The notes below the pieces were generated by a model. The model saw only the letters and a program-made list of their open reading frames with translations. It did no database searches and was not told the DNA's origin. Shown one piece after another: positions 32 to 6,226 of a stretch of 9,262 nucleotides of DNA. Source of the DNA: an archaeon (GTDB lineage: Archaea; Asgardarchaeota; Thorarchaeia; Thorarchaeales; Thorarchaeaceae); NCBI GenBank assembly GCA_024275415.1, contig JAJRZD010000074.1, positions 1-9,262 on the forward strand, given 5' to 3'. Each line of letters starts with the position of its first letter. Positions within the stretch are counted from its first letter, which is position 1. The translations under genes and the position numbers were made by a program.

Positions 32-1873
32 CTATTCAGACATATATGGGTCCTCATCGATGTCTATCCCGAAGTACCCCATCTCTTCAAGAATGTCTTC
101 CATTGCTTCCGCACCTGAAACCCATGTCACCTTCCAATCTCCTTCAGGTGTCAAGATAAGTTCTACATCCGGAAGATCACCAAGCAGGTTGTGGTTCATC
201 TCGATGACATCTTGATATGCGCCTGTAAGAGCGATGACAAAATAGGAACCCTGTACATCCTTGAGCGACCCCACAGGTATCCCGAGCCCCATCTCTGCGT
301 TTGGCATTGCAATTGGTCTGTTGTCACGGGCAAACCACACCTCACCTACACCTTTCCTATGAAACTGGGATATCTCTCCATCAGAGTCGCAAGTGATGTC
401 CACAAGCCTGACCGTGGTTTCGGGTCTTAGATGGAGGTCTCTGACCGGGATGATGGGGAAATGCTGTTGAACCAGCACATGATCTCCAGCAGCATTGAAG
501 ACACTAAAGTTCCCGATGACGATGTGGTCAGGATACCAGATGTTTTCCAGTATCCTGTCTGACCTTAGGCTCTTGCTTCCCAATCGAGCAAGCTGACGCC
601 TCATCTCAGCACGAAGCTCGCCCACAAACCGCTCCTTGTCTAAGAGGCTCTCCAATGTTTCTGTTGTAGGTTTGGCGACTGAGAGATACTCATTCCAGAT
701 ATCCGCAAGCTCTGATATGGATGCAGCATCACTCAGTTTGTTTTTCCAATTCTCCATAACCTCCAGAAGATGTATTGGCAGTTCGTGTTCTGGTGGGAAT
801 ACTGATCTCACTTCAAGTGCTTTCACCACGACCATCGAGGACAACGCCGTAATTCCTCTTCCAGACTCGATCATGATGTCAGGCGGCTGTCGAGCGCTGC
901 CTATGTTCTTCACTTCATCTAGGATGCCCATTACGATTGCCTGTGCATACCGTTCCATCAAATTCGGGGAATGCGAACTCGTATAATCAATAGGCAAGCC
1001 ACCACCAAAGTCAATCCTCCGCAATTCCTTCAAGCCCCTCTCCCTTAGTTCGTAGAACACCCGAGTCATGAATCCGGCGAACCTTCCAAAGTCCTCGATA
1101 GCAGTGATTTGAGACCCAACATGTCCTAGAACCGTTGTGACACAGTTCTCGAAACCCTCCTTCTTGAGCAGGTCAATGACACTAAGAAGGTCGTGAATGC
1201 TCAGCCCGAACTTGGAATCCCTTCCTGCGGAGTGTGACCAATGTCCTCTGACCGTCAGATACGGCTTGATTCTAAGGACGAGAGATGTTTCTTGCGAACT
1301 CAGGATATCTACGATAAGTCTAGCCTCGTGGATTGACTCTATCGATATAGCAATGTTGTATCCATCTTTGACAAACTCCTCGATGGCTCGCAAATACTCA
1401 GGATCCTTCGCTCCATTGCAGATGATGAGCCTGTCCTTCTCGTCCTTAAGGACACTTCGTATGAGATACAATTCAGCCTTGGTTCCAGCCTCAAGCCCAT
1501 ATGACCTGTCTGCTTGCAGTACTGGGATAACGCAATCCTTCCGCTGATTCACCTTTACAGGATAAACAGCACCGAACTTCCCTTTATAGTCAAGTTCAGC
1601 CATGACTCTAGTGAAGGCGGACTTCAATTTGTGAATCTGGTAATGGATAAGCTGGGGCATCCTAAGTGTGAACGACGATGTGTATGCAGTCCTTGAGCCG
1701 TTTTCCGATTCGATCTTGCGGATGAGTTCGTCAAATGCAATGGTCTTGCCCATGAATCGGATGAACAGCTTGCCGTCATTCCCGATGTCAAGGAAATGGA
1801 GGTCATTCTTGCCAAGCCCATACACTACCCGCGACCTGTCTATTGTCCACTCTTTTGCCTTCACATGAGTCAC
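32..1873 (-). CDS. speA: Biosynthetic arginine decarboxylase (PLP-dependent, fold type III, SpeA family)
   Basis: 613-aa ORF with the SpeA motifs in order: YPVKVNQ (PLP lysine), GLEAGTKAEL, ICNGAKD, SKFGLS, HVGSQI, DFGGGLPIDY, ESGRGI, NFSVF, DITCDSDG, GAYQDV..NHNLLG. The annotated start is GTG at 1873. GTG at 1864 is at least as likely, because GGAAGTGA (1877-1870) lies 5 nt upstream of it. Confidence 0.93.
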   Translation of the reverse strand: MTHVKAKEWTIDRSRVVYGLGKNDLHFLDIGNDGKLFIRFMGKTIAFDELIRKIESENGSRTAYTSSFTLRMPQLIHYQIHKLKSAFTRVMAELDYKGKFGAVYPVKVNQRKDCVIPVLQADRSYGLEAGTKAELYLIRSVLKDEKDRLIICNGAKDPEYLRAIEEFVKDGYNIAISIESIHEARLIVDILSSQETSLVLRIKPYLTVRGHWSHSAGRDSKFGLSIHDLLSVIDLLKKEGFENCVTTVLGHVGSQITAIEDFGRFAGFMTRVFYELRERGLKELRRIDFGGGLPIDYTSSHSPNLMERYAQAIVMGILDEVKNIGSARQPPDIMIESGRGITALSSMVVVKALEVRSVFPPEHELPIHLLEVMENWKNKLSDAASISELADIWNEYLSVAKPTTETLESLLDKERFVGELRAEMRRQLARLGSKSLRSDRILENIWYPDHIVIGNFSVFNAAGDHVLVQQHFPIIPVRDLHLRPETTVRLVDITCDSDGEISQFHRKGVGEVWFARDNRPIAMPNAEMGLGIPVGSLKDVQGSYFVIALTGAYQDVIEMNHNLLGDLPDVELILTPEGDWKVTWVSGAEAMEDILEEMGYFGIDIDEDPYMSE

Positions 1874-1891: not shown

Positions 1892-3361
1892 CTACTGGGG
1901 CTCATCTTCTTTTATGGAGTCGAGCATCCCTTGGAACGCTCTTGCGAGGTCTCCAATCTCGTCATCCTTATCCATGTATCTCTTATCAACTTGAAGGTCT
2001 TCGGCATCAAGCTTCTCTTCCCTGATCATGGCTGAAACATTGCGAGTTGCAAGATCCATCAAGTACTGTAAAGGCCCAGTGATTTGATTGGCGACTGCAA
2101 CTGCCACCACAGCTGCCAATGCAATACCTCCTACAGTTATGGCAAGAATGAACATGGTGGCAGCAACATTGGCTTCTGTAATCCTTGCTTCAAGAAGTGG
2201 TATGGCTTCTTGCACCTCCTCCACAGGGACGATGATGATACAGATGTAGCCTCCAACTCCAACAGGTGTGTGAACAAGAATGAACTCCTTGTTATCTTTG
2301 CTGAACTCGATAGTTCCCGTTGTCCCTGAAAGGATCTGATTCATCTGGACTGTGGTCAATGCCGATGTTGTCCCGTCCACCTCGAACTCCTGAAGAGTAG
2401 GTAATCTCCCAAACTGTGTGTCGTACCGCTCATAGACATCATCGTCCACATTGGGGTGCGCTAGAATCTCACCTGACTGGGTCACCAATGCGGCATATCC
2501 TGTTTCTAAGATTTGAACATCAAGAATCTTTGATCGGATGTTCTCAATGGATATGTCACCGGCGACTATCCCGATTAGCGTTGCAGTATCATCGTAGACT
2601 GCTCTTCCAATTGACATCAGAAGGACGTTGTCTATTGGGTCCAGATATGGTCCATAGTAGACCATTTCTCCCATTCCTGCGCGGATTGCCTGATAGAATT
2701 CATCACCTGTAGGATACCATGGGTCTGTATTCCTATCAGTATCAGTTCCTCCTACGGAACTCCCAGGATAATTGATCCACAGGTCATTCTCAAAGCCAAC
2801 GTACAACCATCTGAACTCGGGTAACTGGGCATGGACATACTGGAACATAAAGTCGAGGTTGGAAACCCGTTCCAGTTTCTCTTGATTCGCAGTATAGTAG
2901 GTGGCGTAGTTAGTGGAATCCGAACCTGGAATGTACCAGCTACTGTAATTCCAGCTGATATTGATTCCATATCTGGAGTCATAATGCGTATCAGCAGGGT
3001 ATGTCCCAGCGGCACCGTATTGGAAGAAGTAGTCATAGTAAATGTTACTTCTTGGAAGGTAGGTGGAGCTCGAATCGAATAACTGCTCGCATTCTTCGGC
3101 GATAGCAGAAACCAGACCTTCGGCACTCTGCAACTTTTGCTTTATCACATCAGCATTCTCTTCTGCTGTTATCTCCATGTTCCTTCGGATCTGTTCCTCA
3201 AGTGCAAGCGAACTCTGACTGGTTGTAGAACTCCCAATCAAACCGATGAATTGGTATGAGATGAAGCCTGTTGCACCTAGTGATAGAATTGTTATCACTA
3301 GGAATGTTGCAATTACATTTCTCCGAAAACTCCCTTTCTTCTTTGTCTTTTCCATGGTCAT
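1892..3361 (-). CDS. Membrane sensor: TM1 - extracytoplasmic dCache_1-like domain - TM2 - HAMP, with no cytoplasmic output domain
   Basis: Basic N-terminus (KTKKKGSFRR), then hydrophobic TM1 (aa ~16-42). Cache signatures: WLYVGF..INYP, GPYLDP, IGIVAGDI, GYAALVTQSGEILAHP. TM2 at aa ~400-424. HAMP helices ITGPLQYL and DDEIGDLARAFQGML, with the stop ~9 aa later. Probable start is ATG 3355, 8 nt after GGAGG. Confidence 0.85.
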   Translation of the reverse strand: MTMEKTKKKGSFRRNVIATFLVITILSLGATGFISYQFIGLIGSSTTSQSSLALEEQIRRNMEITAEENADVIKQKLQSAEGLVSAIAEECEQLFDSSSTYLPRSNIYYDYFFQYGAAGTYPADTHYDSRYGINISWNYSSWYIPGSDSTNYATYYTANQEKLERVSNLDFMFQYVHAQLPEFRWLYVGFENDLWINYPGSSVGGTDTDRNTDPWYPTGDEFYQAIRAGMGEMVYYGPYLDPIDNVLLMSIGRAVYDDTATLIGIVAGDISIENIRSKILDVQILETGYAALVTQSGEILAHPNVDDDVYERYDTQFGRLPTLQEFEVDGTTSALTTVQMNQILSGTTGTIEFSKDNKEFILVHTPVGVGGYICIIIVPVEEVQEAIPLLEARITEANVAATMFILAITVGGIALAAVVAVAVANQITGPLQYLMDLATRNVSAMIREEKLDAEDLQVDKRYMDKDDEIGDLARAFQGMLDSIKEDEPQ

Positions 3362-3363
3362 CT

Positions 3364-3368
3364 CCTCC
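3364..3368 (-). promoter_or_regulatory. Shine-Dalgarno site GGAGG overlapping the upstream stop codon (TAGGAGG), consistent with translational coupling
   Basis: The minus strand reads TAG-GAG-GAG-ATG-ACC-ATG. GGAGG lies 8 nt before ATG 3355. Confidence 0.7.
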
Positions 3369-6208
3369 TAGTAATCGTCGGTTGTCCCTCCGACTTCCAG
3401 CTGTGCCATCATCACGGCGACCTCTTGGAACGCTCTTTCAATGTCCAACCTCACATTCTTGCTATCCACCACTGAGAAGTATTGACCTTGTGGGATAGAT
3501 TCACAGACTGACTCTAGTAACTCCTCGAATGTCATCCTCCGCCCTGTTCTTTCTGATCTGATATTCTCCTCGATTGGATTGGCCAATTCCTCTCCCACTC
3601 CAATGATGATCAAATTGACATCAAGGTGGTTATCTCGAATGAAACCCTCTATAGTAAGAGGTCTCCTTCTTCTTTGTCTGTCTTTCTCAGTCCGTATTCC
3701 TTTCAACATGTCAAGTGAGTACTTCTCAGAGCTATTATCTTGCCCATCCGTTAAGGCAATGACCCATCTGTGTTCGCTAGATTCGATTAGGTTTAGATCT
3801 TCCAGTGCTCTACCAAGTGCATCGTAGAATGCAGTAGCATAGTTCGGATACCTCAGAGAATCAAGCGCTTTCCATATCGGGCTATCTTTTGGATTCTCGT
3901 ATTCACCCTTTCTAGTAAGTGGAAGCAGCTGTTGGTATGAGCTGTTGAAGATGATTATGCCGACCTCATCTTGAGGGTTAATTTGACTAGAAAGTATCTC
4001 TTTTGCTCCAGTAACCGCAGCTTGAATCCGGTTCTGTGCTCTCATGCTTCCGGAGTAGTCGATGACAAATACCACGCTCTTCTTGAATTGTATCGAACGT
4101 CGCAGTTTCTCTGCTTGCCTTCGCAATTCGTGGCTTGACTCACCGAGTTGGTCTTTCACATCTGCAAGATGCTGCATGGCAACCACTTGCAATGCATATT
4201 CCTCGGTTCGCTCAGCATAGTTCACTGACTCTTGGTATGCGTTTTTCGCCTTTTGCCATTCGTCCTGCAACTCATGAAGTTCACCGATGTGATAGTTGAT
4301 GTATGCAAGCCCTCTATCGTAGTTGTGGTCTTCAGCTATACGTTTCGCCTCATTGAACTTGGAATAGGCTTGGCTATACTGTCCTTTCCGCATCATGACC
4401 AGACCCATTGCATCATATCGTCGGGCCAGTCCTCTTACATTCCCTATTGTCTGGTCAATGGCCTCTGCATCTTCAAGCCTCGATATGGCGTCATCGAATT
4501 CCTTCATGTCCATTTTTATGAGTGCAATGTTGTGATACGCTGAAGCAACTCGATCCATAGCATCGGTTTCATTCAGTCCACCTTCCTTTGCTTGCTTCAG
4601 AAGTTCTTTTGCAAGAGTAAGAGCCCGTTCGTAGTATTCTAGGGCATTCCCTGTATCTCCTCTTTGCCTGAAGACATTCCCAATGTTGAGATACATGGTC
4701 TGCTCCCCAATATCGATATCAAGCCTTCTACTGATCTCAAGCAGATTCTGGTAGTTAGACAATGCCCTGTTCAGGTCTCCACGGATGAATGCCTGATTTC
4801 CAAACCGGCAAGCTTCTTGAAAACTGAGAAGCGCGTCTACTGTCGTTCCGATTTCTTCATACATTGCTCCTGTAGCGGTGATGCTTCTCGTGAAGTCTTG
4901 TTTTGCCATCTTCTCCACGAGGTTTGTCATCTCCCTCAACGGCTCAACGACCGACTGTCCTCTCTTATAGGACACCACGCCCACAATTATCGCAACAGCA
5001 CCCAGCACTCCACCAAGGATGAGTGTCAGGAAGAATGTCTGTTGTTGCACTAGAGCAAGGATGTCCACTGCTGGCTGTACGACCTCAGATGAAGGAACCA
5101 CCACGGCAAGCAGGAATCCTGTGTTGTTAACACGTTCATAGGTGAAATACCACTCCTCTCCATCTTTGATGAAGGTGTCTTGTCCGCTACCCGAAGCAAG
5201 TGCACCGGTAAGGATGGATGAGAATGCGGTTCTTTCACTTGTTGATTGGAACTCAAGTTCGTAAATAGACTCGCGAGCGTCTGTCAGGTCTGGGTGAGCA
5301 AGAACATCACCATCCGATTCGAGGATGTATGCGTAGCCACTTTCCAGCACTTGGATGTCTAGGACACTTGTCAGGATTGTGTTCATGGTCACATCAGCTG
5401 ATACAACACCAATCAGTGTGCCATTGTCCCAGTAGATTGGCCTACCTAGTGAGATGACAAGTCCTGTTGAAGGGTCTCCGTATGGGCTAGTTATTACGAT
5501 TCCATCATCATTCATGGGGACTGCAGCAGCACTTGTGTACCATCCTTCTACCTGAGGATTGTAATCCTCGGCTGGTGTATCTCCAAGGAAATATTCGAGG
5601 TTATCGTAAGGATAGTTCTTGAACAAGTGGCTTGAGCTTACCGTTTCATCAAAGTACATGTACAGCCATATGTAATCAGAACTCATCTCATGCAATGACC
5701 GGAAGACATTGTCCATGTTGCTTGAAACATTGAGCAGATACTCTGTGGTAGTGTCAAGATTGAAGGGATCACCAGGTGTTGGATAGTAGTTTCTAGGCAT
5801 GTAGTAACAACTTGTTTCAAAGGAAATCGAGTACGAATCATAATCGGGGTTATATGAGGGGTCTAACCCCGGAACTGGATGCCCTCTCGAACTCTCTAAT
5901 GCCGGATCCCAGAAATAATAGTCTTGGGGGTTAGCATTTATCCTACCGTTAAAGAGGTCTTCTGCATACTTCTCCATGATATATACTCCATCAATGTAGT
6001 TCTTCATGCGCTCTTCGATGAACAGCGCAGTATCTCCTGCAATTCTCTGGAGATTTGCAACCTCTTCATTCTTCAGTGCTTGTGCAGCATCGCCTGCATT
6101 CTCATTTGAAACATTGAATATTGTCATCACTGATATTCCAGAGATGAACAGCATCGGGATCAATGAAACCGTCACGAATGCCACAATTATTCTCCTACTG
6201 ATTTTCAT
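3368..6208 (-). CDS. Membrane sensor: TM1 - dCache_1-like - TM2 - HAMP - TPR array - vWA (MIDAS) domain
   Basis: TM1 at aa ~7-30. Cache signatures: WLYMYF..KNYP, YNPQVEGWY, SPYGDP, IGVVSADV, GYAYILESDGDVLAHP. TM2 at aa ~392-413. HAMP: VVEPLREM...EEIGTTVDAL. About 5-6 TPR units at aa ~463-700 (e.g. YLNIGNVFRQRGDTGNALEYYERAL, YHNIALIKMDMKEFDDAISRLEDA). vWA at aa ~711-935 with VFVIDYSGSM (DxSxS), TAFYDAL and IALTDGQDN. Confidence 0.88.
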   Translation of the reverse strand: MKISRRIIVAFVTVSLIPMLFISGISVMTIFNVSNENAGDAAQALKNEEVANLQRIAGDTALFIEERMKNYIDGVYIMEKYAEDLFNGRINANPQDYYFWDPALESSRGHPVPGLDPSYNPDYDSYSISFETSCYYMPRNYYPTPGDPFNLDTTTEYLLNVSSNMDNVFRSLHEMSSDYIWLYMYFDETVSSSHLFKNYPYDNLEYFLGDTPAEDYNPQVEGWYTSAAAVPMNDDGIVITSPYGDPSTGLVISLGRPIYWDNGTLIGVVSADVTMNTILTSVLDIQVLESGYAYILESDGDVLAHPDLTDARESIYELEFQSTSERTAFSSILTGALASGSGQDTFIKDGEEWYFTYERVNNTGFLLAVVVPSSEVVQPAVDILALVQQQTFFLTLILGGVLGAVAIIVGVVSYKRGQSVVEPLREMTNLVEKMAKQDFTRSITATGAMYEEIGTTVDALLSFQEACRFGNQAFIRGDLNRALSNYQNLLEISRRLDIDIGEQTMYLNIGNVFRQRGDTGNALEYYERALTLAKELLKQAKEGGLNETDAMDRVASAYHNIALIKMDMKEFDDAISRLEDAEAIDQTIGNVRGLARRYDAMGLVMMRKGQYSQAYSKFNEAKRIAEDHNYDRGLAYINYHIGELHELQDEWQKAKNAYQESVNYAERTEEYALQVVAMQHLADVKDQLGESSHELRRQAEKLRRSIQFKKSVVFVIDYSGSMRAQNRIQAAVTGAKEILSSQINPQDEVGIIIFNSSYQQLLPLTRKGEYENPKDSPIWKALDSLRYPNYATAFYDALGRALEDLNLIESSEHRWVIALTDGQDNSSEKYSLDMLKGIRTEKDRQRRRRPLTIEGFIRDNHLDVNLIIIGVGEELANPIEENIRSERTGRRMTFEELLESVCESIPQGQYFSVVDSKNVRLDIERAFQEVAVMMAQLEVGGTTDDY

Positions 6209-6217
6209 GTCTTACAT

Positions 6218-6226
6218 TCACACTCC
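6218..6226 (-). promoter_or_regulatory. Shine-Dalgarno-like GGAGTGTGA overlapping the upstream stop codon
   Basis: The minus strand reads TAGGAGTGTGAATGTAAGACATG. GTGA ends 9 nt before ATG 6208. Confidence 0.55.

What the first reader, a model, noticed from the sequence alone, without database searches (positions are those of the whole stretch)
1892..3361. Output-less Cache-HAMP paralog: candidate co-receptor, modulator or decoy
Seen: a clear paralog of the upstream receptor (ILDVQILETGYAALVTQSGEILAHP versus VLDIQVLESGYAYILESDGDVLAHP) that stops just after HAMP. It has its own strong SD and intact TM1/TM2, so it does not look decayed. Its HAMP connector (NVSAMIREEKLDAEDLQVDKRYMDK) is longer and more charged than in receptor 1. 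Both TM2 helices have small-residue motifs (GGVLGA; GGIALAA). Established: HAMP domains work as parallel dimers. Inference: it forms a heterodimeric HAMP with receptor 1 (asymmetric receptor with one TPR-vWA arm), or the enlarged connector is itself a docking site.
Basis: partly seen in the sequence, partly recalled or inferred. Interest (0 to 1): 0.66.

Follow-up and report, generated by a model that had tools for sequence, protein, structure and literature searches.

The report
Output-less partner of Asgard receptor pair
This gene encodes a complete, strongly conserved membrane sensor that ends right after its signal-relay (HAMP) domain; in Asgard archaea it is always encoded directly behind a longer sister sensor, and in some other organisms the two are fused into one protein, so it most likely works as the second, output-less half of a two-part receptor.

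Summary
Window 1892-3361 (-) encodes a dCache_1-TM-HAMP protein (489 aa; probable start ATG 3355, 487 aa) that ends 3 residues after HAMP helix AS2. It is not a truncation. More than 200 homologue clusters of similar length (mostly 477-497 aa) were found, and the 25 aligned end at the same place. dN/dS is 0.03-0.09, and the HAMP is the best-conserved part.

In 38 of 38 Asgard loci where both genes are whole (CH2 identity 25-83%), the long paralogue (dCache-HAMP-TPR-vWA, "R1") lies directly upstream. The spacer is 2-22 nt, and a GGAGG-like site precedes the start in all 41 loci. The two gene trees mirror each other, pointing to one ancient duplication.

The ligand pocket is intact, and the HAMP connector is always 6-10 residues longer than in R1.

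New here: five database proteins of 1146-1634 aa carry a short-type unit and an R1-type unit in one chain, which supports a 1:1 asymmetric receptor. Short Cache receptors of protists and giant viruses nest inside the short-type clade.

Heterodimer geometry itself remains untested, because no multimer modelling was available.

The scan has noted this receptor pair before on other genomes. The fusions and the placement of the short form appear new.

The parts
1892..3361 (-). CH2 gene: output-less dCache_1-TM-HAMP receptor (489-aa ORF including stop 1892-1894; probable true start ATG 3355-3353, giving 487 aa)
   Evidence: ORF; Pfam; more than 200 homologue clusters of similar length; dN/dS 0.03-0.09; AF2 model pLDDT 88.4
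3362..3370 (-). R1 stop codon TAG (3368-3370) abutting an SD-like AGGAGGAG (3362-3369): a translational-coupling junction
   Evidence: Sequence. A GGAGG-like site before the start in 41/41 loci, directly after the upstream stop in most; spacer median 12 nt, range 2-22, in 38 loci
3320..3361 (-). Cytoplasmic N-terminal tail (residues 1-14) with a conserved basic motif (T-K-K-K-G-S-F)
   Evidence: Invariant T6 K8 K9 G10 F12 among 25 orthologs; 6 K/R against 1 D/E; pLDDT below 50 for residues 1-7
3245..3319 (-). TM1 (residues 15-39)
   Evidence: Hydropathy; continuous helix 12-94 in the model
2174..3244 (-). Extracytoplasmic double Cache (dCache_1) sensor, residues 40-396
   Evidence: Pfam dCache_1 65.1 bits; Foldseek top hits are PscC, Mlp24, PctA/B/C, Tlp3 and alpha2delta; profile hits to CACHD1 and Mlp24
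2555..2809 (-). Membrane-distal pocket segment (W185, Y187, D220, F222, Y223, Y239, D241, D269): amino-group residues kept, carboxylate-binding Arg replaced by Asp
   Evidence: Alignment to Mlp24/Mlp37. Among 41 orthologs W185, Y239, D241 and D269 are invariant, and the Arg position reads E18/D15/Q4/R3
2075..2173 (-). TM2 (residues 397-429)
   Evidence: Hydropathy; helix 386-446; spacing from the Cache-end Pro to the HAMP Pro is 51 residues in every family member
2024..2074 (-). HAMP helix AS1 (residues 430-446, begins with invariant P430)
   Evidence: P430 invariant in 40 orthologs; helix in the model
1961..2023 (-). Elongated, acidic HAMP connector (residues 447-467) with a conserved D-L-Q-V-D-type motif
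   Evidence: 14/21 residues charged, net charge -4; Pro-to-Glu spacing 35-39 against 29-30 in R1; motif conserved; two short helical turns in the model
1895..1960 (-). HAMP helix AS2 (468-486) plus a 3-residue acidic end; the best-conserved segment of the protein and its C-terminus
   Evidence: Invariant D466-L480 block in 25 orthologs; regional conservation 0.87, the highest; dN 0.033 against 0.134 in Cache
3368..6208 (-). R1: the long paralogue, dCache-HAMP-like-TPR-vWA (946 aa), the inferred partner subunit
   Evidence: Pfam; directly upstream in 38/38 loci where both genes are whole, with a cut R1 fragment upstream in two more; sister clade
32..1873 (-). SpeA-like arginine decarboxylase, 18 nt downstream; a frequent but not universal neighbour of the pair
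   Evidence: NCBIfam biosynthetic arginine decarboxylase 345 bits, cut-off 369; adjacent in 31 of 41 loci
6226..7668 (-). Beta-propeller / Zn-ribbon / winged-helix protein, first gene of the cluster in Thorarchaeia
   Evidence: Pfam; upstream of R1 in all 20 Thorarchaeia loci (window included) that reach that far, weak or absent elsewhere

Best explanation
CH2 is the output-less subunit of a two-subunit, enzyme-free transmembrane receptor.

It binds a ligand in its own double-Cache pocket, probably a cationic or amine-type ligand because the carboxylate-binding Arg is replaced by an acidic residue. It then relays the change through TM2 into a canonical HAMP with a long connector. Having no output of its own, it acts in a 1:1 complex with the co-translated long paralogue R1.

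The simplest geometry is an asymmetric heterodimer whose TM and HAMP helices pack together. The state of both sensors would then be read out through R1's single TPR-vWA docking arm, which in turn engages cytoplasmic partners (the propeller protein, possibly the arginine decarboxylase).

Shown:
- the gene is whole, under strong purifying selection, and always paired with R1;
- the pocket and HAMP are intact;
- natural fusions of the two receptor types exist.

Inferred:
- physical contact between CH2 and R1;
- the heterodimer geometry;
- the ligand class;
- the downstream partners.
For: 1. The protein is whole and constrained. More than 200 homologue clusters of similar length (mostly 477-497 aa) were found. 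The C-termini coincide to within 1-3 residues in the 25 aligned. dN/dS is 0.03-0.09.

2. The pairing is obligate. R1 lies directly upstream in 38/38 loci where both genes are whole, from 25% to 83% CH2 identity; the spacer has a median of 12 nt, and a GGAGG-like site precedes the CH2 start in all 41 loci, directly after the R1 stop in most. The CH2 and R1 clades are separated by one branch (support 100) and have mirrored topologies.

3. Rosetta-stone fusions exist. P0193, P0194, P0198, P0242 and P0228 (1146-1634 aa) have four TM segments. Unit 1 scores best with the CH2 profile (long connector). Unit 2 scores best with the R1 profile over its whole length; the three whose juxtamembrane sequence was read show canonical spacing, two with the RFGN motif, and Pfam finds a vWA domain in the three full-length fusions scanned. 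All unit 1 sequences fall on the CH2 side of the tree, and all unit 2 sequences fall inside the R1 clade (support 99).

4. The HAMP is the most conserved part, and the pocket residues are invariant. Both sensing and relay are therefore under selection.

5. The AF2 model of fusion P0228 has pTM 0.55, and only 632 of its 1146 residues reach pLDDT 50 or more. I infer that one unit alone could not give that value, so the two units are probably placed relative to each other. This is weak evidence from a low-confidence model.

6. There is a published precedent for an output-uncoupled HAMP that signals through a bound operon partner: the CHH receptor (bioRxiv 10.64898/2026.05.25.727664).
Against: - There is no direct test of contact. 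Multimer modelling was not available, and model coordinates and PAE cannot be read.
- Fusions show that the two units work together. They do not show which surfaces touch.
- The fused order (short unit first) is the reverse of the Asgard gene order, and the organisms carrying the fusions are unknown.
- The 51-residue Cache-to-HAMP spacing shared by CH2 and R1 also occurs in bacterial relatives, so it says nothing about register matching.
- Rate covariation is not specific to R1.
- The short-type relatives in protists and giant viruses may act without an R1-type partner. This could not be checked.
Confidence: 0.65

Rival explanations
1. CH2 is a separate homodimeric receptor. Its free HAMP bundle is the output surface, and a partner docks on it non-covalently: R1's TPR-vWA arm, the propeller/Zn-ribbon protein, or the arginine decarboxylase. 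This would resemble the Cache_heme-HAMP (CHH) receptor and its kinase.
For: - The CHH precedent: helical modules of an operon partner bind each HAMP subunit symmetrically.
- AS2 is close to the general HAMP consensus and is highly conserved.
- Two lineages added a Zn ribbon (plus HEAT repeats in one) directly after AS2, showing that the HAMP end can drive its own scaffold.
- The elongated connector carries a conserved motif.
- Short-type relatives in protists and giant viruses carry NPF/PPxY-like tails, which are adaptor-type motifs.
Against: The tandem fusions tie one short unit to one R1 unit, which a pair of independent homodimers does not predict. The strictly invariant 2-22 nt coupling to R1 is tighter than the linkage to the propeller or decarboxylase genes, which vary outside Thorarchaeia.
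Confidence: 0.22
2. CH2 is a decoy or ligand sink, or a dominant-negative damper. It competes for ligand, or titrates R1 into inactive dimers, without passing on any signal of its own.
For: It has an intact pocket very like R1's, with the same Arg-to-acid swap. It has no output domain.
Against: A sink does not need a HAMP, yet the HAMP is the most constrained region (dN 0.033 against 0.134). P430, E468 and G470 are invariant down to 25% identity. The pairing has been kept since before the Asgard lineages split, and fusion into one chain does not fit a titrating competitor.
Confidence: 0.07
3. The gene is a truncated or decaying copy, or an assembly or gene-calling error.
For: HAMP scores just under Pfam's cut-off (23 against 25). 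The genome search reported open frames of 1101-1146 aa in three genomes.
Against: The long 'open frames' are an artefact, since a TAG stop sits at each junction. The end point is the same in the 25 aligned orthologs, and more than 200 clusters share the length. dN/dS is 0.03-0.09. No closer relative of 857 aa or more was found, which is weak evidence. Real decay looks different: in genome G076 one deletion removed the propeller-R1-CH2 stretch and left fragments with stops.
Confidence: 0.01

Closest known systems
Cache_heme-HAMP (CHH) receptor of Pseudomonas azotoformans with its operon Ser/Thr kinase (bioRxiv 10.64898/2026.05.25.727664)
   Same: A transmembrane Cache-type sensor that ends in a HAMP domain with no output of its own, and that signals through a protein encoded beside it. 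The authors call such an uncoupled HAMP uncommon.
   Different: CH2 has a double Cache without the CXXCH haem motif. It has no kinase neighbour. Its constant neighbour is a paralogous receptor with a TPR-vWA arm. Its HAMP connector is 6-10 residues longer than canonical. It comes from Asgard archaea rather than proteobacteria.
dCache_1 amino-acid and amine receptors (PctA/B/C, Mlp24/Mlp37, Tlp3; the AA_motif of PMC8915833 and the AM_motif of PMC10589655)
   Same: The sensor fold and the amino-group-binding residues are the same (equivalents of Y129, Y144 and D173 are Y223, Y239 and D269). The layout TM - sensor - TM - HAMP is also shared.
   Different: There is no MCP, kinase or cyclase output. 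The carboxylate-binding Arg is Asp/Glu, so CH2 is not a dCache_1AA member. The full AM_motif was not tested.
R1, the neighbouring dCache-HAMP-TPR-vWA receptor (window 3368-6208)
   Same: It is a paralogue (26% identity) with the same topology, the same 51-residue Cache-to-HAMP spacing and the same Arg-to-acid pocket change.
   Different: R1's AS2 runs on through an RFGN motif into TPR repeats and a MIDAS-type vWA domain. Its connector has canonical length, and its HAMP is too divergent for Pfam.
Heteromeric dCache chemoreceptor models of Bacillus subtilis (PDB 9a65 YvaQ-McpB, 9a69 McpB-McpC)
   Same: These are the top structural matches to the CH2 model, and they are deposited as complexes of paralogous dCache receptors (entry titles only).
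   Different: Both partners there are full MCPs with outputs. I did not read the underlying paper.
Eukaryotic alpha2delta / CACHD1 (Cache plus vWA proteins)
   Same: CACHD1 is the best sequence match of the CH2 profile among solved structures (8s7c, E 6e-24), followed by alpha2delta. The Cache and vWA building blocks are shared.
   Different: There the vWA is inserted into an extracellular Cache domain within one chain. Here the vWA is cytoplasmic and sits on the partner subunit.

Membership tests
dCache_1 (PF02743) | Profile match above Pfam's gathering score | tested here: met
   65.1 bits against a cut-off of 45
dCache_1 (PF02743) | Double PDC fold between two TM helices | tested here: met
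   AF2 model pLDDT 88.4; Foldseek E 1e-10 to 1e-12 to PscC, Mlp24, PctA/B/C and Tlp3
HAMP (PF00672) | Profile match above the gathering score | tested here: inconclusive
   The window protein scores 23 bits against a cut-off of 25, and only profile positions 23-52 align because of the long connector. Orthologs pass: 34.7, 27.6 and 25.5 bits
HAMP (PF00672) | AS1 with conserved Pro, a connector, and AS2 starting with the E-x-G motif, directly after TM2 | tested here: met
   P430, E468 and G470 are invariant in 40 orthologs; helices 386-446 and 468-486
HAMP (PF00672) | Parallel dimeric four-helix bundle | not testable with these tools
   Only single-chain prediction was available, and coordinates cannot be read
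dCache_1AA universal amino-acid sensor (AA_motif, PMC8915833) | Arg of the R-x-W-Y motif that binds the ligand carboxylate | tested here: not met
   The position is D220 in the window protein and E18/D15/Q4/R3 among 41 orthologs
dCache_1AA universal amino-acid sensor (AA_motif, PMC8915833) | Aromatic and Asp residues that bind the amino group (W128, Y129, Y144, D173 in PctA numbering) | tested here: met
   F/W222, Y223, Y239 and D269; the last two are invariant
dCache_1AM amine sensor (AM_motif, PMC10589655) | The full AM_motif, including the extra cation-pi aromatic residue and the charged pair above the pocket | not tested
   The motif positions are given in a figure that is not held as text. 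Only the shared residues and the loss of Arg were checked
CHH-type output-uncoupled HAMP receptors | The protein ends after the HAMP with no output domain | tested here: met
   AS2 ends at residue 486 of 489. The same end is seen in 37 of the 41 proteins compared
CHH-type output-uncoupled HAMP receptors | Cache_heme sensor with a CXXCH haem-c motif | tested here: not met
   The translation contains no CXXCH; its only two Cys residues are isolated
CHH-type output-uncoupled HAMP receptors | Operon-encoded Ser/Thr kinase with helical HAMP-binding modules | tested here: not met
   No kinase in the window. The neighbours are R1, a propeller protein and a decarboxylase
Enzyme-output receptors (MCP, histidine kinase, cyclase, phosphatase) | An output domain C-terminal to the HAMP | tested here: not met
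   No such Pfam or NCBIfam hit. No closer long relative found, which is weak evidence

The most novel reading that the evidence does not exclude
The short-form plus long-form pair is an Asgard-born, kinase-free heterodimeric receptor that eukaryotes inherited or acquired early.

On this reading, the short Cache receptors of protists (Andalucia, Stygiella, Platysulcus) and of giant viruses, with their NPF/PPxY-type tails, descend from the CH2 lineage. So do the 1500-1600-aa tandem proteins that join a short unit to a TPR-vWA unit. This would be an undescribed receptor line linking Asgard archaea to eukaryotic Cache and vWA membrane proteins.
Probability: 0.3. Interest if true: 0.85.

Novelty: new variant of a known kind. 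Interest (0 to 1): 0.66.

Why it matters
HAMP domains are textbook relays between a sensor and an enzyme in the same chain. This one has nothing behind it, yet it has been kept under strong selection across Asgard archaea, always coupled to a paralogue whose only output is a docking arm.

If the pair is an asymmetric heterodimer, it would be a prokaryotic counterpart of eukaryotic receptors in which one subunit senses and the other signals. It would also be a way of signalling across a membrane without any kinase, cyclase or methyl-accepting domain.

The natural fusions give a ready-made single-chain construct for structural work.

The nesting of protist and giant-virus Cache receptors inside the short-form clade bears on two points. 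One is which membrane receptors eukaryotes share with Asgard archaea. The other is the published statement that all eukaryotic dCache_1 proteins carry a vWA insertion (PMC8915833).

Tried and rejected
1. **Fusion with the downstream decarboxylase.** The genome search reported open frames of 1101-1146 aa in three genomes, but a TAG stop is present at each junction. Rejected.

Context came from the genome search and the fetch from genomes instead.

3. **Identical 51-residue Cache-to-HAMP spacing in CH2 and R1** as evidence of register matching. Rejected, because bacterial relatives and the protist/virus clade have the same spacing.

4. **Acidic C-terminal end as a TPR-clamp ligand** (EEVD-like). 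Rejected, because the tail is basic or neutral outside Thorarchaeia.

5. **Mirror-tree / partial Mantel tests.** Periplasmic parts co-vary with periplasmic parts and cytoplasmic with cytoplasmic, but also with the decarboxylase. The signal is not specific.

6. **Zn-ribbon similarity** between the propeller protein and the Zn-ribbon-bearing CH2 variants. Only the generic CxxC...CxxC type is shared.

7. **Naming organisms by genome-contig scan.** The pattern was too generic, and only 3 Asgard loci came back.

8. **Viral contig scans** with A2 and with the Yasminevirus protein found nothing. A3 was too divergent to scan. The profile search with A3 returned almost nothing.

9. **A deep alignment for folding a fusion.** It failed because MAFFT stacked R1-type rows onto unit 1. 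The fold from 5 sequences is of low confidence (pLDDT 52.6).

10. **A read-through R1-CH2 pseudo-chain for AF2** was considered and not run. Without coordinates or PAE the result could not be interpreted.

11. **Promoter/terminator scan.** Counts were at chance level, and the models are bacterial.

12. **G058 'split' CH2** is a scaffold gap (a run of N), not biology.
Full report
**What is there.** The minus-strand ORF 1892-3361 encodes 489 residues.
- Pfam finds dCache_1 at 65.1 bits (cut-off 45). It finds HAMP at 23 bits (cut-off 25), matching only the end of the connector and AS2.
- Hydropathy gives TM1 at 15-39 and TM2 at 397-429. The N-terminal tail is basic, so the Cache domain lies outside the cell and the HAMP inside.
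- An AF2 model built on 40 orthologs is confident (pLDDT 88.4, pTM 0.72). It shows helix 12-94, a double Cache, helix 386-446 (stalk, TM2, AS1), a 21-residue connector with two short turns, and AS2 at 468-486. The protein ends three residues later.
- Foldseek places the sensor among dCache_1 receptors (PscC, Mlp24, PctA/B/C, Tlp3) and alpha2delta.
- The upstream 946-aa gene (R1: dCache, HAMP-like segment, TPR, vWA) is the only paralogue in the genome, at 26% identity and E 6.6e-34.
- The four minus-strand genes are separated by 17, 6 and 18 nt.
- The R1 stop abuts AGGAGGAG. Its spacing and the ortholog N-termini favour ATG 3355 as the true start.

**It is not a truncation.**
- A protein search returned more than 200 clusters, the whole ones mostly 477-497 aa, at 51-84% identity and about 99% coverage. 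Where they carry a name, almost all are from Thorarchaeota MAGs.
- In an alignment of 25 orthologs all C-termini fall within 1-3 residues of each other. The block from D466 to L480 in AS2 is invariant.
- dN/dS is 0.03-0.09 for ortholog pairs with unsaturated dS. Against the nearest relative, dS is saturated; dN is 0.033 in the HAMP and 0.134 in the Cache domain.
- The apparent open frames of 1101-1146 aa in three genomes are an artefact, because a TAG stop is present.
- No relative of 857 aa or more scored E 1e-20 or better, which is weak evidence.

**A fixed pair.**
- In the class, 72 of 87 genomes have a match, covering 16 of 17 genera. In the phylum sample, seven further families have one.
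- I fetched 40 loci, 20 from across Thorarchaeia and 20 from other Asgard families. The latter include MAGs labelled Heimdallarchaeota and Hodarchaeota.
- In every locus where the upstream flank is present, an R1-type gene of 870-960 aa lies directly upstream on the same strand.
- The spacer has a median of 12 nt (range 2-22) in the 38 loci where both genes are whole. All 41 CH2 starts are preceded by a GGAGG-like site, directly after the R1 stop in most.
- The decarboxylase gene is adjacent in 31 of 41 loci. The propeller gene lies upstream of R1 in every Thorarchaeia locus that reaches that far, and is weak or absent elsewhere.
- A tree of 41 CH2 and 38 R1 sequences splits them at one branch (SH-aLRT 100), and the two subtrees have the same lineage order. 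This fits one old duplication followed by joint inheritance.
- In genome G076 a single deletion removed the propeller, R1 and most of CH2, while the decarboxylase stayed.

**Features of the short form.**
- The pocket residues W185, Y239, D241 and D269 are invariant in 41 orthologs. The position of the carboxylate-binding Arg of amino-acid sensors is acidic: D220 here, and E18/D15/Q4/R3 overall. R1 shows the same change. CH2 therefore looks able to bind a ligand. It fails the amino-acid-sensor motif and fits a cationic ligand; this last step is inference.
- The HAMP Pro-to-Glu spacing is 35-39 in all CH2 proteins and 29-30 in all R1 proteins. The extra segment carries a conserved acidic-hydrophobic motif.
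- The 51-residue spacing from the Cache end to the HAMP is shared with bacterial relatives, so it is not informative.
- Four of the 41 proteins have more after the HAMP. Family f12 has a Zn ribbon plus HEAT repeats. A second Heimdall copy has a Zn ribbon only. Both are nested among output-less clades, so these are later gains.

**Wider family and fusions.** A profile search of 1.84 billion representative proteins gave 505 hits at E 1e-30 or better.
- Of the best 150 hits, 37 end within 30 residues of the HAMP. Many proteins of 500-620 aa have Pro/Tyr-rich tails with NPF/NPY and PPxY-like motifs.
- Named members come from Andalucia godoyi, Stygiella incarcerata, Platysulcus tardus, Yasminevirus, Mimivirus LCMiAC02 and a 650-kb viral contig. 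They have dCache_1 without a vWA insertion and keep the Arg.
- In trees rooted on bacterial enzyme-output receptors, R1 (support 98) is sister to CH2 plus this protist/virus clade (support 94). The protist/virus clade nests inside Asgard CH2.
- AU tests reject joining the protist/virus clade to R1 (p 0.017) and reject a CH2 clade that excludes it (p 0.004). The groups were named only after the tree had been seen, and long branches are present.
- The protist/virus clade shares the long connector, mostly 34-36 residues.
- Five representatives (1146-1634 aa) contain two receptor units in one chain with four TM segments.
  - Unit 1 matches the CH2 profile end to end and scores higher with it than with the R1 profile.
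  - Unit 2 matches the R1 profile; the vWA part is matched in the four that are not cut.
  - In the three fusions whose juxtamembrane regions I read, unit 1 has the long connector followed by an NPF motif. Unit 2 has canonical spacing, and two of the three show the RFGN motif.
  - In a tree, all unit 1 sequences fall on the CH2 side and all unit 2 sequences fall within R1 (support 99).
- A 5-sequence AF2 model of P0228 is poor (pLDDT 52.6). Its pTM of 0.55 about equals the fraction of residues with pLDDT 50 or more (632 of 1146). I infer that this needs both units to be placed relative to each other. This is only weak support.

**Reading.** The fixed coupling, the joint inheritance and the fusions argue that CH2 and R1 work in one complex at 1:1, with one docking arm per pair of sensors.
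- Whether the two HAMPs form one mixed bundle is untested.
- The main rival is a CH2 homodimer whose HAMP is docked by a partner, as shown for the Cache_heme-HAMP receptor and its kinase.
- A decoy role fits poorly with a HAMP under the strongest constraint.

**Literature and earlier notes.** I found no paper on this Asgard pair. Earlier notes of this scan describe the pair on this genome and several others. None mentions the tandem fusions.

Noticed in passing
P0193, P0194, P0198, P0242, P0228 (database proteins, organisms unknown): Single polypeptides of 1146-1634 aa with four TM segments. A short-type Cache-HAMP unit (long connector, NPF motif) is followed by a linker of about 80 to 190 residues and then an R1-type Cache-HAMP-TPR-vWA unit.
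   Followed up: yes
P0246 (Andalucia godoyi), P0224 (Stygiella), P0190 (Platysulcus), P0235 (Yasminevirus), P0285 (Mimivirus LCMiAC02), P0225 (650-kb viral contig): Protist and giant-virus Cache receptors without a vWA insertion nest inside the Asgard short-form clade. They have NPF/PPxY-like tails and keep the amino-acid-binding Arg. This extends the statement in PMC8915833 that all eukaryotic dCache_1 proteins have a vWA insertion.
   Followed up: partly
L052:296-2287 (-), L053:2700-4652 (+), L054:9110-10858 (+); P0121: In one Asgard family (f12) the short form carries a Zn ribbon and HEAT repeats after the HAMP (about 650-665 aa). No propeller gene was detected in the fetched flanks of these loci.
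   Followed up: partly
L056:8066-9697 (-); P0127: A Heimdallarchaeota MAG has a second R1/CH2 pair. Its short form ends in a Zn-ribbon segment with several CxxC pairs (544 aa).
   Followed up: partly
L111 (G076:C7), about 9979-10539: A natural knockout: one deletion joins the first 68 or so codons of the propeller gene to the last 143 or so codons of CH2 (with stops), removing R1. The decarboxylase and the deacetylase-like gene remain intact.
   Followed up: yes
L113:7589-9538 and L114 (G058): CH2 is interrupted by a run of N after about residue 128, and the rest of the gene plus the decarboxylase lies 180 kb away. This is probably a scaffolding artefact. An arginase/agmatinase-family gene sits at L113:9648-10586.
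   Followed up: partly
window 7738-8817 (+) and 8915-9262 (+): A histone-deacetylase-family gene (260 bits) is transcribed divergently from the cluster and was detected beside it in 14 of the 20 other Thorarchaeia loci; several of the rest end at a contig edge. The next ORF starts with a CxxxCxxC motif (radical-SAM-like, no Pfam hit on the fragment) and recurs in four of those loci.
   Followed up: no
Genome search output, G011:C56, G009:C38, G014:C42: The 'open_frame_aa' values of 1101-1146 run across a TAG stop that is present in the DNA. In these loci, and in the window, CH2 and the decarboxylase happen to share a reading frame.
   Followed up: yes
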